A stretch of 3,742 bases of DNA from Naegleria gruberi (lineage: Eukaryota): assembly GCA_000004985.1 (NCBI GenBank), contig GG739211.1. One strand, 5' to 3'. This document shows positions 1 through 3,742 of the stretch, in pieces. Below the pieces are notes generated by a model. That model was not told the origin of the DNA, did no database searches, and saw only the letters and a program-made list of their open reading frames with translations. Numbering within the stretch: position 1 is the first letter of the stretch; every line of letters begins with the position of its first letter. The position numbers and the translations under genes are program-made.

Positions 1-994
1 GGGAATTGTTTAAAGTAAGGTAACTCTCAATGAAAGACCAATCCCTCTGTAATTTGATGGATTGTACACTTTCCAATAAATCAATCTCTGATTGTGTGAA
101 ATTTACAACACCATGCAAAGTGTCCAATACATAAGTGTCATGATATCTGCTCGATGAGCAATCTGTTACATTTGTGAAATTTCTCATATTGATTTGACTC
201 GAAAATAAAGAACCACTTCCATCAATCGAATTGACCAAAACCTGTGATGGAAATAATGGAATGGGTACATAATCAGTTGGATTGTAATAAGTACCATCAC
301 TCGATGGTGTCGTTCCCATTCCATAAAATAGACCCTTCCTCGTCACAAATTGATTCACTCTCACGTAGAATGCAAAATCAAAACTATTCAACAACAAGGC
401 ATCTCCCAATTCCAAACTTGATCCATAAATACAATCAGGATAGAATGAAGAACGTGATTCCACAACAAAATTCTGATCAATCCATGTCTTGTTGTAATTT
501 GTTGTCAGTGAGCTCCATATTTTCTGACATGGATACAGTTGGGGACACAGAATTTTAAATTTCCTTGTCTTTCCAAATGGCTGTCCATTGGTTGAATAAA
601 ACTTTGTAAAATCTTGAGAATTATTCGACACTCTCCCTATCAATTCATCCAAATCAAACTTTTTGCTATCCATCTTACTATTTGGGTATACAAATTTCTT
701 CCACACAAAAATCGAGTAATAATTAAAACCGCCAACAATTATCGAATTATTCTTCAAATCTTGAATGTTGAGCGAATTGACTGTTTGCTGATATCCGAGT
801 ATAAAATTGGGCAGTGTTGATATCGTTAAAAGCAGCAATATTGTAATCATTAGTTTTGTTTCTGATAAAGTAAATTTAATATTCGAATAATGAGAAGAAA
901 ATTGTTTCGTATTGTGATGATGCGATGTTATTGTTGTTGATGTAGCTGGGTGATTTAACTCTCCACCCATCCTCGTCTTGACTTTTGCTTTCAT
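1..994 (-). CDS. Paralog A. Predicted type II single-pass membrane glycoprotein with a conserved luminal domain, function unknown. Partial: the start codon is at 994..992 and the ORF runs off the window at position 1 with no stop (at least 331 codons visible).
   Basis: I reverse-complemented and translated 994->1 by hand. The ORF is uninterrupted: MKAKVKTRMGGELNHPATSTTITSHHHNTKQFSSHYSNIKFTLSETKLMITILLLLTISTLPNFILGYQQ...QSIKLQRDWSFIESYLTLNNS. An in-frame TAA (plus 998..1000) lies two codons upstream of the ATG, so 994 is the first possible start. The start context is aaaaATG. A 20-aa hydrophobic segment (residues about 48-67) follows a K/R/H-containing N-terminus, consistent with N-in topology. 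There are N-x-S/T sequons (NNS, NKT, NFT, NVT, NFT) and conserved Cys residues (CPQLYPC, DC, DC). The protein is 90+% identical to copy B over the luminal domain, with a synonymous excess. The supplied track omitted this ORF only because it lacks an in-window stop. Confidence 0.8.
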   Translation of the reverse strand, partial: MKAKVKTRMGGELNHPATSTTITSHHHNTKQFSSHYSNIKFTLSETKLMITILLLLTISTLPNFILGYQQTVNSLNIQDLKNNSIIVGGFNYYSIFVWKKFVYPNSKMDSKKFDLDELIGRVSNNSQDFTKFYSTNGQPFGKTRKFKILCPQLYPCQKIWSSLTTNYNKTWIDQNFVVESRSSFYPDCIYGSSLELGDALLLNSFDFAFYVRVNQFVTRKGLFYGMGTTPSSDGTYYNPTDYVPIPLFPSQVLVNSIDGSGSLFSSQINMRNFTNVTDCSSSRYHDTYVLDTLHGVVNFTQSEIDLLESVQSIKLQRDWSFIESYLTLNNS

Positions 995-1009
995 TTTTTA
1001 ATGTCTGAA
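36..1009. repeat. Tandem segmental duplication unit 1, containing paralog A. It is a direct repeat of 2769..3736.
   Basis: Hand alignment gives an offset of +2733 between 36..184 and 2769..2917 (4 mismatches in 149 nt). The offset is +2727 between 233..649 and 2960..3376 (9 mismatches in 417 nt). Homology continues, more diverged and with indels, through the N-terminal coding part and 15 nt past the ATG (cat(t)5-6(a)atgtctgaa). Confidence 0.9.
794..853 (-). other. Predicted signal-anchor / transmembrane segment of paralog A (LMITILLLLTISTLPNFILG)
   Basis: This is a 20-residue uncharged hydrophobic stretch at residues 48-67. The K/R/H-bearing N-terminal flank fits the positive-inside rule for an N-in, type II orientation. 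It is conserved in position and character in copy B. Confidence 0.6.
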
Positions 1010-1011
1010 AT
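1001..1011 (-). promoter_or_regulatory. Conserved 5' leader element atTTCAGacat, 6-7 nt upstream of the paralog A ATG. It may be a 3' splice or trans-splice acceptor (TTTCAG), or an initiator-like element.
   Basis: The minus-strand reading is gatTTCAGacattaaaaaATG. TTTCAG is the reverse complement of plus 1005..1010. The same element occurs at the same distance from the ATG in copy B. Confidence 0.3.
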
Positions 1012-1033
1012 CTGTCAGCACTAATCCATACGA

Positions 1034-2750
1034 NNNNNNNNNNNNNNNNNNNNNNNNNNNNNNNNNNNNNNNNNNNNNNNNNNNNNNNNNNNNNNNNNNN
1101 NNNNNNNNNNNNNNNNNNNNNNNNNNNNNNNNNNNNNNNNNNNNNNNNNNNNNNNNNNNNNNNNNNNNNNNNNNNNNNNNNNNNNNNNNNNNNNNNNNNN
1201 NNNNNNNNNNNNNNNNNNNNNNNNNNNNNNNNNNNNNNNNNNNNNNNNNNNNNNNNNNNNNNNNNNNNNNNNNNNNNNNNNNNNNNNNNNNNNNNNNNNN
1301 NNNNNNNNNNNNNNNNNNNNNNNNNNNNNNNNNNNNNNNNNNNNNNNNNNNNNNNNNNNNNNNNNNNNNNNNNNNNNNNNNNNNNNNNNNNNNNNNNNNN
1401 NNNNNNNNNNNNNNNNNNNNNNNNNNNNNNNNNNNNNNNNNNNNNNNNNNNNNNNNNNNNNNNNNNNNNNNNNNNNNNNNNNNNNNNNNNNNNNNNNNNN
1501 NNNNNNNNNNNNNNNNNNNNNNNNNNNNNNNNNNNNNNNNNNNNNNNNNNNNNNNNNNNNNNNNNNNNNNNNNNNNNNNNNNNNNNNNNNNNNNNNNNNN
1601 NNNNNNNNNNNNNNNNNNNNNNNNNNNNNNNNNNNNNNNNNNNNNNNNNNNNNNNNNNNNNNNNNNNNNNNNNNNNNNNNNNNNNNNNNNNNNNNNNNNN
1701 NNNNNNNNNNNNNNNNNNNNNNNNNNNNNNNNNNNNNNNNNNNNNNNNNNNNNNNNNNNNNNNNNNNNNNNNNNNNNNNNNNNNNNNNNNNNNNNNNNNN
1801 NNNNNNNNNNNNNNNNNNNNNNNNNNNNNNNNNNNNNNNNNNNNNNNNNNNNNNNNNNNNNNNNNNNNNNNNNNNNNNNNNNNNNNNNNNNNNNNNNNNN
1901 NNNNNNNNNNNNNNNNNNNNNNNNNNNNNNNNNNNNNNNNNNNNNNNNNNNNNNNNNNNNNNNNNNNNNNNNNNNNNNNNNNNNNNNNNNNNNNNNNNNN
2001 NNNNNNNNNNNNNNNNNNNNNNNNNNNNNNNNNNNNNNNNNNNNNNNNNNNNNNNNNNNNNNNNNNNNNNNNNNNNNNNNNNNNNNNNNNNNNNNNNNNN
2101 NNNNNNNNNNNNNNNNNNNNNNNNNNNNNNNNNNNNNNNNNNNNNNNNNNNNNNNNNNNNNNNNNNNNNNNNNNNNNNNNNNNNNNNNNNNNNNNNNNNN
2201 NNNNNNNNNNNNNNNNNNNNNNNNNNNNNNNNNNNNNNNNNNNNNNNNNNNNNNNNNNNNNNNNNNNNNNNNNNNNNNNNNNNNNNNNNNNNNNNNNNNN
2301 NNNNNNNNNNNNNNNNNNNNNNNNNNNNNNNNNNNNNNNNNNNNNNNNNNNNNNNNNNNNNNNNNNNNNNNNNNNNNNNNNNNNNNNNNNNNNNNNNNNN
2401 NNNNNNNNNNNNNNNNNNNNNNNNNNNNNNNNNNNNNNNNNNNNNNNNNNNNNNNNNNNNNNNNNNNNNNNNNNNNNNNNNNNNNNNNNNNNNNNNNNNN
2501 NNNNNNNNNNNNNNNNNNNNNNNNNNNNNNNNNNNNNNNNNNNNNNNNNNNNNNNNNNNNNNNNNNNNNNNNNNNNNNNNNNNNNNNNNNNNNNNNNNNN
2601 NNNNNNNNNNNNNNNNNNNNNNNNNNNNNNNNNNNNNNNNNNNNNNNNNNNNNNNNNNNNNNNNNNNNNNNNNNNNNNNNNNNNNNNNNNNNNNNNNNNN
2701 NNNNNNNNNNNNNNNNNNNNNNNNNNNNNNNNNNNNNNNNNNNNNNNNNN
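1034..2750. other. Assembly gap (1717 consecutive N)
   Basis: This is a direct observation of an uninterrupted n run. It must contain the 3' end of copy B, the intergenic region and the promoter of copy A. Confidence 0.99.
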
Positions 2751-3721
2751 TTATAATTCTCTATAACGGACCAATCCCTCTGTAATTTGACGGATTGTAC
2801 ACTTTCCAATAAATCAATCTCTGATTGTTTGAAATTTACAACACCATGCAAAGTGTCCAATACATAAGTGTCATGATATCTACTCAATGAGCAATCTGTT
2901 ACATTTGTGAAATTTCTTGTATTCACCTGGTCTGAAAGAAGAGAGCCCTCACTAGACTGGACCAAAACCTGTGATGGAAATAATGGAATGGGTACATAAT
3001 CAGTTGGATTGTAATAAGTACCATCGCTTGATGGTGTAGTTCCCATTCCATAAAATAGACCCTTCCTCGTCACAAATTGATTCACTCTCACGAAGAATGC
3101 AAAATCAAAACTATTCAACAATAAGGCATCTCCCAATTCCAAACTAGATCCATAAATACAATCAGGATAGAATGAAGAACGTGATTCCACAACAAAATTC
3201 TGATCAATCCATGTCTTGTTGTAATTTGTTGTCAGTGAGCTCCATATTTTCTGACATGGATACAGTTGTGGACAAAGAATTTTAAATTTCCTTGTCTTTC
3301 CAAATGGCTGTCCATTGGTTGAATAAAACTTTGTAAAATCTTGAGAATTATTCGACACTCTCCCTATCAAATCATCCAAACTAAATGGATTTGTATTTTC
3401 TATTATCCCATTCGGATAAACAAATTTCCTCCATACAAATATAGAATAATAATTGAAGGCACCAACAATTATCGAATTATTCTTCAAGTCTTGCATGTTG
3501 ACCATGCTAACCTTATCTTGTATTTGCTGTTGTTGATATCCTAGAACATAATTGGGTAGAGCGGAAAAGGTCAGTATTAGCAGTAAAATGTAAAATAGTT
3601 TGGTTTCTAATAAACTAATAGGAATGTTAGAATAAATACTCCCATAAGGTAAGAACCCAGTTCTTGTTGTGTGACCTATTATAACAGTCTGCACGTGTTG
3701 TGTGGTGTAACTTTGTGCCAT
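2751..3721 (-). CDS. Paralog B of the same type II membrane glycoprotein family. Partial: the start codon is at 3721..3719 and the 3' part of the CDS is lost in the assembly gap.
   Basis: The N-terminal 323 residues of the track's 998..3721 ORF are the real product: MAQSYTTQHVQTVIIGHTTRTGF...LFYILLLILTFSALPNYVLGYQQQQ...LQRDWSVIENY. After that the track translates N's as X. The reading frame is still open at the gap edge, where the last partial codon is aaN. The domain architecture matches copy A (tail, TM segment, stem, glycosylated Cys-containing domain). The start context is aaaaaaATG. Confidence 0.8.
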
Positions 3722-3736
3722 TTTTTTATGTCTGAA
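2769..3736. repeat. Tandem segmental duplication unit 2, containing paralog B. It is a direct repeat of 36..1009.
   Basis: Same alignment as for unit 1. The repeat period is about 2.73 kb if the gap size is accurate. Confidence 0.9.
3539..3598 (-). other. Predicted signal-anchor / transmembrane segment of paralog B (LFYILLLILTFSALPNYVLG)
   Basis: It is hydrophobic and 20 residues long (residues 42-61). It is the counterpart of the copy A segment and is followed by a Q-rich stem (GYQQQQIQ). Confidence 0.6.
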
Positions 3737-3737
3737 T
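3728..3737 (-). promoter_or_regulatory. Conserved 5' leader element atTCAGacat upstream of the paralog B ATG (ATTCAG variant of the acceptor-like motif)
   Basis: The minus-strand reading is tatatATTCAGacataaaaaaATG. ATTCAG is the reverse complement of plus 3732..3737. Only 21 nt of upstream sequence are available before the window ends. Confidence 0.3.
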
Positions 3738-3742
3738 ATATA

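What the first reader, a model, noticed from the sequence alone, without database searches (positions are those of the whole stretch)
185..232. Hypervariable loop 1 with a 6-nt indel inside an otherwise ~97% identical domain
The flanking blocks differ by 4 of 149 nt (36..184 vs 2769..2917) and 9 of 417 nt (233..649 vs 2960..3376). This segment (copy A 185..232; copy B 2918..2959) is almost unalignable at nucleotide level. It encodes VNSIDGSGSLFSSQINMRNFT versus VQSSEGSLLSDQVNTRNFT (two-residue indel, about 50% aa identity). The abrupt boundaries suggest one of two things. Gene conversion may be homogenising the flanks while this patch escapes. Alternatively the patch is a surface loop under diversifying selection, e.g. 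a ligand or substrate specificity loop.
Basis: seen in the sequence. Interest (0 to 1): 0.55.

Follow-up and report, generated by a model that had tools for sequence, protein, structure and literature searches.

The report
Old divergent patch in gene-converted paralogs
Two neighbouring copies of a Naegleria surface-receptor gene have been made almost identical by copying between them, except for a 14-16 codon loop that kept its old divergence; this is a real but familiar pattern.

Summary
Copy A 36..184 and 233..649 differ from copy B by 4/149 and 9/417 nt. The patch between them (185..232 vs 2918..2959) is 48 vs 42 nt and 50% identical where alignable. This clustering is far beyond chance.

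The window holds two minus-strand partial genes separated by a 1717-N scaffold gap. Their closest relative is Naegleria gruberi XP_002680867 (94% identity). That protein has a signal peptide, a Naegleria-specific ectodomain, a multi-pass membrane region (about seven helices) and a weakly matching RGS domain.

The decisive test is at synonymous sites. pS is 0.84 in the patch, 0.03-0.08 in the flanks and 0.70 in the divergent N-terminal part. So the patch is old sequence inside a recently homogenised core. It is not a fast-evolving loop in a young duplicate, and pN is below pS there.

The N. gruberi protein is itself a mosaic, with copy B's stem and copy A's patch and tail. This shows exchange of segments between copies.

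Across the family the patch falls in a variable-length spacer between an invariant Pro and an invariant Cys. Structure prediction failed, so surface exposure is untested.

Verdict: a gene-conversion or recombination mosaic. The reason the patch escaped is unresolved. Moderate-to-low interest.

The parts
2..994 (-). Copy A. Partial CDS (331 codons) with its ATG at 994..992; it runs off the window at its 3' end. It encodes an N-terminal tail, a hydrophobic signal/anchor segment and the ectodomain of a putative 7TM-RGS receptor.
   Evidence: Translation is open throughout. It is 94% identical to N. gruberi XP_002680867 over residues 77-331. There is one hydrophobic segment at residues 48-66, seven N-X-S/T sequons and four Cys.
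2751..3721 (-). Copy B. Partial CDS (323 codons) with its ATG at 3721..3719; it is cut by the scaffold gap at 2750/2751.
   Evidence: It is 80% identical to copy A in protein overall.
1034..2750 (.). Scaffold gap of 1717 N between the two copies. It presumably hides the membrane-spanning and RGS part of copy B and the B-A intergenic spacer.
   Evidence: The N run was located. XP_002680867 has about 464 codons beyond the point where copy B breaks off, i.e. about 1395 nt. That leaves about 360 nt between B's stop and A's ATG (inference).
185..232 (-). Divergent patch, copy A version (16 codons: NSIDGSGSLFSSQINM).
   Evidence: XP_002680867 carries the same 16 residues.
2918..2959 (-). Divergent patch, copy B version (14 codons: QSSEGSLLSDQVNT).
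   Evidence: GC is 0.48 against 0.35 for the flanks, which is not significant (p=0.10).
36..184 (-). Homogenised tract, C-terminal flank of the patch in copy A (partner 2769..2917 in copy B). It encodes RNFTNVTDC...LQRDWS, including the double sequon and the invariant Cys.
   Evidence: 4/149 nt differ and pS is 0.034.
233..654 (-). Homogenised tract, N-terminal flank of the patch in copy A (partner 2960..3381 in copy B).
   Evidence: 9/417 nt differ over 233..649 and pS is 0.079. The boundary at about 654/655 comes.
655..994 (-). Old-divergence N-terminal part of copy A: cytoplasmic tail or signal region, plus the first conserved ectodomain motif IIVGGFNYYSIFVW (partner 3382..3721 in copy B).
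   Evidence: pS is 0.70 and pN 0.31 (computed over codons within 650..994). Conserved residues such as VYP use different codons in the two copies.
2..35 (-). C-terminal side where divergence resumes (partner 2751..2768 in copy B).
   Evidence: 7 of the 17 comparable nt differ, including synonymous changes.

Best explanation
The window carries two old paralogous genes, most likely tandem. They encode Naegleria-specific receptors with a signal peptide, a roughly 250-residue glycosylated Cys-containing ectodomain, about seven membrane helices and a cytoplasmic RGS-like domain.

Recombination between the copies has recently overwritten the central ectodomain (copy A 36..654) with near-identical sequence. 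This was gene conversion, possibly together with unequal crossing-over. The 14-16 codon patch at 185..232 / 2918..2959 was not overwritten, or was re-imported from a divergent copy by a short tract. It therefore keeps the old divergence still seen in the N-terminal part and in the C-terminal tail.

The patch lies in a spacer that varies in length and sequence throughout the family. This spacer sits between an invariant Pro (IPLFP motif) and an invariant Cys, immediately before a double N-glycosylation sequon. It is therefore probably an exposed loop.

Shown here: the mosaic of synonymous divergence, the family-wide variability of the spacer, and the mosaic third sequence. Inferred: tandem arrangement across the gap, loop exposure, and the reason for escape. 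That reason could be selection against conversion of a functionally differentiated loop. It could also be a mechanical barrier, since a 6-nt heterology with 50% mismatch would stop heteroduplex extension.
For: - Differences cluster strongly: 27 of 40 differing columns fall in 48 of 614 core positions (p about 2e-24; 0/20000 permutations).
- Nei-Gojobori estimates give pS 0.84 in the patch, 0.034 and 0.079 in the flanks, and 0.70 in the N-terminal part.
- Codons for identical residues differ in 5/7 cases in the patch and 8/183 in the flanks (p=1.3e-5). The patch is not different from the N-terminal part, 27/59 (p=0.25).
- Regions that are poorly conserved across the family, such as FTKFYSTNGQPFGKT and RKGLFYGMGTTPSSD, are 100% identical between A and B. 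Core identity therefore reflects recency, not constraint.
- XP_002680867 matches B at all 13 informative positions before the breakpoint. It matches A at 14 of 15 after it, including the whole patch.
- The two flanks have similar divergence (2.7% and 2.2%).
- The two patches remain homologous in frame (S.G S L. S. Q. N shared), so this is slow divergence and not random replacement.
- Naegleria is reported to be a heterozygous, recombining diploid that carries recombination and mismatch-repair genes (PMC9928731).
Against: - Only two DNA sequences are available, so conversion tracts are inferred from heterogeneity and not from phylogenetic incongruence at the DNA level.
- The patch has only about 9 synonymous sites.
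- A single contiguous conversion tract would have converted the patch. The model therefore needs several events, patchy mismatch repair, or a later re-import.
- The third sequence is known only as protein, and its genomic position relative to the window is unknown.
- The tandem arrangement rests on an N-gap whose size is only an estimate.
Confidence: 0.6

Rival explanations
1. Short-tract import. The two copies were fully homogenised, or recently duplicated, across the ectodomain. One copy then received the roughly 45-60 nt patch by a short ectopic conversion tract from a third, divergent family member.
For: Both flanks have the same low divergence, as expected from one homogenisation event. 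XP_002680867 shows that stem type and patch type reassort independently. N. gruberi has at least one further family member, P0007. The B patch is somewhat GC-richer than its surroundings (0.48 vs 0.35, p=0.10).
Against: No donor carrying the B-type patch was found in any database searched. No template lies inside the window. The divergent stem and tail need separate events anyway.
Confidence: 0.2
2. Diversifying (positive) selection on a ligand-contact loop in a young duplicate, without any recombination. Amino-acid changes accumulated quickly in the loop while the rest stayed unchanged.
For: The patch is a family-wide variable-length spacer next to an invariant Cys and glycosylation sites. 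It lies in the extracellular part of a receptor-like protein.
Against: Synonymous sites in the patch are saturated (pS 0.84) and pN is below pS. Among conserved residues, 5 of 7 use different codons. Selection on protein sequence does not produce this. The equally saturated stem region shows that the pair is old.
Confidence: 0.05
3. A and B are not tandem paralogs. They are two very divergent alleles (haplotypes) of one locus that the assembler placed one after the other with a gap. The patch would then be an old balanced polymorphism, with allelic recombination homogenising the flanks.
For: Naegleria is reported as a heterozygous diploid (PMC9928731). The only annotated N. gruberi protein of this subfamily found in the databases is a single B/A hybrid. 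The two copies are separated by an assembly gap.
Against: The gap is estimated at 1717 nt. That fits the missing roughly 1395 nt of copy B plus a normal intergenic spacer, not an overlap. Copy B's contig ends in divergent sequence, not identical sequence. The stem region is only about 60-79% identical, which is extreme for alleles.
Confidence: 0.12
4. A one-off complex mutation rewrote the patch in one copy. Candidates are error-prone repair, template switching, or a compensated frameshift.
For: The boundaries are abrupt and a 6-nt indel lies inside the patch.
Against: The patches stay aligned in frame with 7/14 identical and several similar residues. A random rewrite or a frameshift would not give this. 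No direct or inverted template for either patch exists in the window; the best local scores of 14-18 are below the mean of 20.1 for shuffled sequences.
Confidence: 0.03

Closest known systems
Islands of divergence in paralogs evolving by gene conversion (models of Innan and of Teshima & Innan; human RHD/RHCE and red/green opsin genes).
   Same: Neighbouring paralogs are nearly identical over most of a region. A short segment with much older divergence, synonymous sites included, is embedded with sharp boundaries.
   Different: Here only two DNA sequences and one mosaic protein are available. No population data or functional difference is known. Selection as the cause of the island is not shown.
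7TM-RGS receptors (AtRGS1-type architecture; Urano 2012 and Bradford 2013, as summarised in PMC3971589)
   Same: Full-length relatives have a multi-pass membrane region followed by a cytoplasmic RGS-like domain. PMC3971589 reports this architecture in many bikonts.
   Different: These proteins carry a large N-terminal ectodomain with no Pfam or PDB match, found only in Naegleria and a few metagenome contigs. The RGS match is below Pfam's gathering score. The membrane and RGS parts are not in the window.
Hybrid genes from unequal crossing-over between tandem paralogs (for example haemoglobin Lepore). Cited from my own knowledge.
   Same: XP_002680867 has the 5' part of copy B and the 3' part of copy A, with a breakpoint inside the near-identical core. 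This is the structure expected of a deletion product of B-A misalignment.
   Different: Its locus is unknown. It also has three private substitutions and one B-type residue after the breakpoint. It could equally be a third paralog shaped by conversion.

Membership tests
Gene-conversion / recombination mosaic between paralogs | Significantly heterogeneous divergence along the alignment, with sharp boundaries | tested here: met
   27 of 40 differing columns fall in 48 of 614 core positions. Fisher p is about 2e-24 and 0/20000 permutations reach this. Boundaries lie at 35/36, 184/185, 232/233 and about 654/655.
Gene-conversion / recombination mosaic between paralogs | The heterogeneity holds at synonymous sites (difference in age, not in constraint) | tested here: met
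   pS is 0.84 in the patch, 0.034 and 0.079 in the flanks, and 0.70 in the N-terminal part. Codon identity among conserved residues gives p=1.3e-5.
Gene-conversion / recombination mosaic between paralogs | Incongruent relationships among three or more sequences in different segments | tested here: inconclusive
   At protein level XP_002680867 is B-type at 13/13 informative sites before the breakpoint and A-type at 14/15 after it. Its DNA and locus could not be retrieved.
Gene-conversion / recombination mosaic between paralogs | Copies are separate loci in one genome (here: tandem) | not testable with these tools
   The copies are separated by 1717 N. The gap size fits the missing part of copy B. 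No eukaryotic genome or read data were accessible.
Loop under positive diversifying selection | Non-synonymous rate exceeds synonymous rate in the segment | tested here: not met
   pN is 0.41 and pS is 0.84 in the patch.
Loop under positive diversifying selection | Segment is a solvent-exposed loop in the structure | tested here: inconclusive
   AlphaFold models were unusable (pLDDT 33 and 37). Indirect support comes from the variable-length spacer of 23-55 residues across the family and its Ser/Gly/Asn/Gln-rich composition.
7TM-RGS receptor | C-terminal RGS domain | tested here: inconclusive
   This part is not in the window. In relatives, Pfam RGS scores 21.2 and 23.3 bits against a cut-off of 23.9. 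The family profile hits RGS5, RGS17, RGS2 and other PDB chains, best E=7e-4. UniProt names the N. fowleri and N. lovaniensis relatives 'RGS domain-containing protein'.
7TM-RGS receptor | Seven transmembrane helices between the ectodomain and the RGS domain | tested here: inconclusive
   A crude hydropathy scan finds 6 segments in XP_002680867 and P0002. After the N-terminal signal segment it finds 6 in P0024 and 7 in P0020. This part is not in the window.

The most novel reading that the evidence does not exclude
The patch is a specificity-determining loop of a Naegleria-specific 7TM-RGS receptor ectodomain. Selection keeps the two neighbouring receptors different at this loop against continuing gene conversion. 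The locus is also copy-number polymorphic, with a B-A tandem haplotype and a single B/A hybrid haplotype (XP_002680867). This would pinpoint a candidate ligand-contact site in a receptor class whose ligands, as far as I know, are largely unidentified.
Probability: 0.2. Interest if true: 0.5.

Novelty: new member of a known kind. Interest (0 to 1): 0.3.

Why it matters
The result shows that the near-identity of the two ectodomains comes from recent recombination and not from functional constraint. It also shows that the patch is old sequence and not fast-evolving sequence. This changes how the pair should be used in any selection analysis. Site models run on such a mosaic would give false positive-selection signals.

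The result marks one short spacer, next to an invariant Cys and two glycosylation sites, as the only place where two otherwise identical receptor ectodomains differ. That makes it a cheap target for a loop-swap experiment, should anyone study these uncharacterised Naegleria 7TM-RGS-like receptors. Beyond that, it is an ordinary example of concerted evolution with an unconverted island.

Tried and rejected
- The word-indexed protein search with copy A found nothing, although a 94% identical protein exists. The exhaustive search found it.
- Pfam gave no hit for either window protein. The PDB sequence search gave only noise.
- Scans of viral and metagenome contigs for relatives found none.
No fold search was run, because it would be meaningless on such models.
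- The locus of XP_002680867 could not be retrieved. Searches with it and with a family alignment returned only four eligible proteins.
- Loci of distant family members in N. fowleri-like and N. lovaniensis contigs are single copy. They say nothing about this pair.
- Template switching from within the window is rejected.
- The patch is not an intron. It is in frame, 42 or 48 nt long, with no GT...AG, and the amino-acid similarity is kept.
- The idea that XP_002680867 is a gene model spliced across the gap from B into A is rejected. It differs from copy A at four residues after the switch point, and two of these, TDF and H in NFTHT, are found in neither copy.
- Rfam gave no hit on either strand.
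- Literature searches found nothing on this gene or on gene conversion in this family.

Full report
**What is in the window.** The 3742-nt window consists of two sequence blocks separated by a run of 1717 N (1034..2750). Both blocks carry a long open frame on the minus strand.
- Copy A starts at the ATG at 994 and runs off the window at position 2 (331 codons).
- Copy B starts at the ATG at 3721 and is cut by the gap at 2751 (323 codons).
- G+C is about 0.30-0.40. No Rfam family matches either strand.

**Check of the observation.**
- On the coding strand the patch reads NSIDGSGSLFSSQINM in A and QSSEGSLLSDQVNT in B. This is a two-codon in-frame indel with 7 of 14 aligned residues identical.
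- The patch contains 27 of the 40 differing alignment columns of the 614-nt core. Fisher p is about 2e-24, and none of 20000 random placements gives an equally dense 48-nt window.
- The near-identical core is itself bounded. Divergence resumes abruptly beyond about 654 towards the N-terminus and before 36 towards the C-terminus.

**What the genes are.** Pfam and the PDB give nothing for the window proteins, and the word-indexed search failed. An exhaustive HMMER search found nine relatives.
- The best hit, 94% identical, is Naegleria gruberi XP_002680867 (NAEGRDRAFT_63837, 716 aa).
- Most of the others are from N. fowleri, N. lovaniensis or N. gruberi, or from assemblies with no organism given. 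One hit (P0003) is a long repetitive protein whose source was not looked up. Several are named 'RGS domain-containing protein' by UniProt.
- Full-length members have a signal peptide and an ectodomain of about 250 residues with conserved Cys and many N-X-S/T sequons. They also have six to seven hydrophobic segments.
- The C-terminal domain matches RGS weakly. Pfam gives 21-23 bits against a cut-off of 23.9. The family profile hits PDB RGS5 at E=7e-4 and many other RGS chains.
- The 7TM-RGS architecture is known in many bikonts (PMC3971589). The ectodomain appears specific to Naegleria.
- The window holds only the N-terminal and ectodomain parts. The missing portion of copy B is about 1395 nt. 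Together with a spacer of about 360 nt, this fits the 1717-nt gap estimate and argues for a true head-to-tail tandem pair (inference).

**The decisive test.** Positive selection on a loop raises non-synonymous change only. A mosaic of ages changes synonymous divergence too. Nei-Gojobori counts are:

| Segment | pS | pN |
|---|---|---|
| Patch | 0.84 | 0.41 |
| Flank 36..184 | 0.034 | 0.025 |
| Flank 233..649 | 0.079 | 0.006 |
| N-terminal part 650..994 | 0.70 | 0.31 |

- Among codons for identical residues, 5 of 7 differ in the patch, 8 of 183 in the flanks (p=1.3e-5) and 27 of 59 in the N-terminal part. The patch does not differ from the N-terminal part (p=0.25).
- In the stem, strictly conserved residues such as V-Y-P all use different codons in the two copies.
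- The patch is therefore as old as the rest of the diverged gene, and the core is young.
- pN is below pS in the patch, so there is no sign of positive selection.

**Constraint does not explain the identical core.** In an alignment of ten ectodomains, several stretches are as poorly conserved family-wide as the patch. Examples are residues 46-75 and 141-160 of the ectodomain numbering. These stretches are 100% identical between A and B.

**The patch is a family-wide variable spacer.** It falls in a segment whose length ranges from 23 to 55 residues. This segment lies between the invariant Pro of the IPLFP motif and an invariant Cys. It sits directly before the double sequon NFTNVT. This is consistent with a loop. 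It remains unverified, because both AlphaFold runs gave unusable models (pLDDT 32.7 and 37.1).

**A third sequence shows exchange.** XP_002680867 matches copy B at all 13 informative positions of the stem. It then matches copy A at 14 of 15 informative positions, including the complete patch and the tail. It has three private substitutions.
- The switch lies inside the near-identical core.
- It cannot be a gene model spliced from B into A in this window, because some of its residues occur in neither copy.
- It is either a third paralog or the product of unequal crossing-over on another haplotype or strain.
- Its DNA could not be obtained.

**Mechanism.** The best-supported reading is an old pair of paralogs whose ectodomain core was recently homogenised by recombination between the copies.
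- The two flanks have the same low divergence. A single contiguous tract would have erased the patch.
- So one of three things happened. Repeated conversion events may be filtered by selection that keeps the loop different. The 6-nt heterology with 50% mismatch may block heteroduplex extension. Or the patch was re-imported from a divergent copy by a short tract.
- The data cannot separate these three.

**Rivals considered:**
- Pure positive selection is contradicted by synonymous saturation.
- Allelic haplotypes mis-scaffolded as a tandem pair remain possible. The gap size and the extreme stem divergence argue against this.
- A one-off complex mutation is contradicted by the retained in-frame similarity and by the absence of any template in the window.

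**Verdict.** This is a real feature, correctly described. The selection half is not demonstrated. The pattern is a known kind, an unconverted island in concertedly evolving paralogs, found here in an uncharacterised protist receptor family. Interest is moderate to low.

Noticed in passing
window 995..1012 and 3722..3740 (minus strand, just upstream of both ATGs): The coding N-termini are diverged to saturation, yet the roughly 17 nt before both start codons are nearly the same: TTCAGACATTAAAAAATG in A and TTCAGACATAAAAAAATG in B. This may be a conserved 5' leader or initiator element, or another short converted tract.
   Followed up: partly
window 1034..2750: The 1717-N gap is about the size needed for the missing membrane-spanning and RGS part of copy B (about 1395 nt) plus a spacer of about 360 nt. 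The gap was probably caused by near-identical repeats of the tandem genes.
   Followed up: partly
protein P0001 (N. gruberi XP_002680867), not in the window: The only annotated N. gruberi protein of this subfamily is a B-stem / A-patch / A-tail hybrid that starts at an internal Met (MQDLK). Its structure is what unequal crossing-over between B and A would give as a deletion product. This hints at copy-number polymorphism or a third copy.
   Followed up: partly
window 95..103 vs 2828..2836 (codons NFT vs NFK): Copy A has an N-glycosylation sequon (NFT, residue 298). Copy B has lost it through one of the few non-synonymous changes in the homogenised tract (NFK).
   Followed up: no
window 2918..2959: The copy B patch is GC-richer (0.48) than its flanks (0.35) and than the copy A patch (0.31). 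This is not significant (p=0.10) but is compatible with a foreign origin of the B patch.
   Followed up: partly
protein P0007 (N. gruberi XP_002676081, 322 aa): A second N. gruberi family member consists of a 40-residue ectodomain fragment (68% identical to copy A residues 185-224). This fragment is joined directly to what aligns with the last membrane helix and the RGS region. It may be a truncated gene, a pseudogene or a faulty gene model.
   Followed up: no
tool behaviour, vs 20: The word-indexed protein search missed a 94% identical database protein that the exhaustive search found. Negative results from the indexed search should not be trusted for this AT-rich eukaryote.
   Followed up: yes
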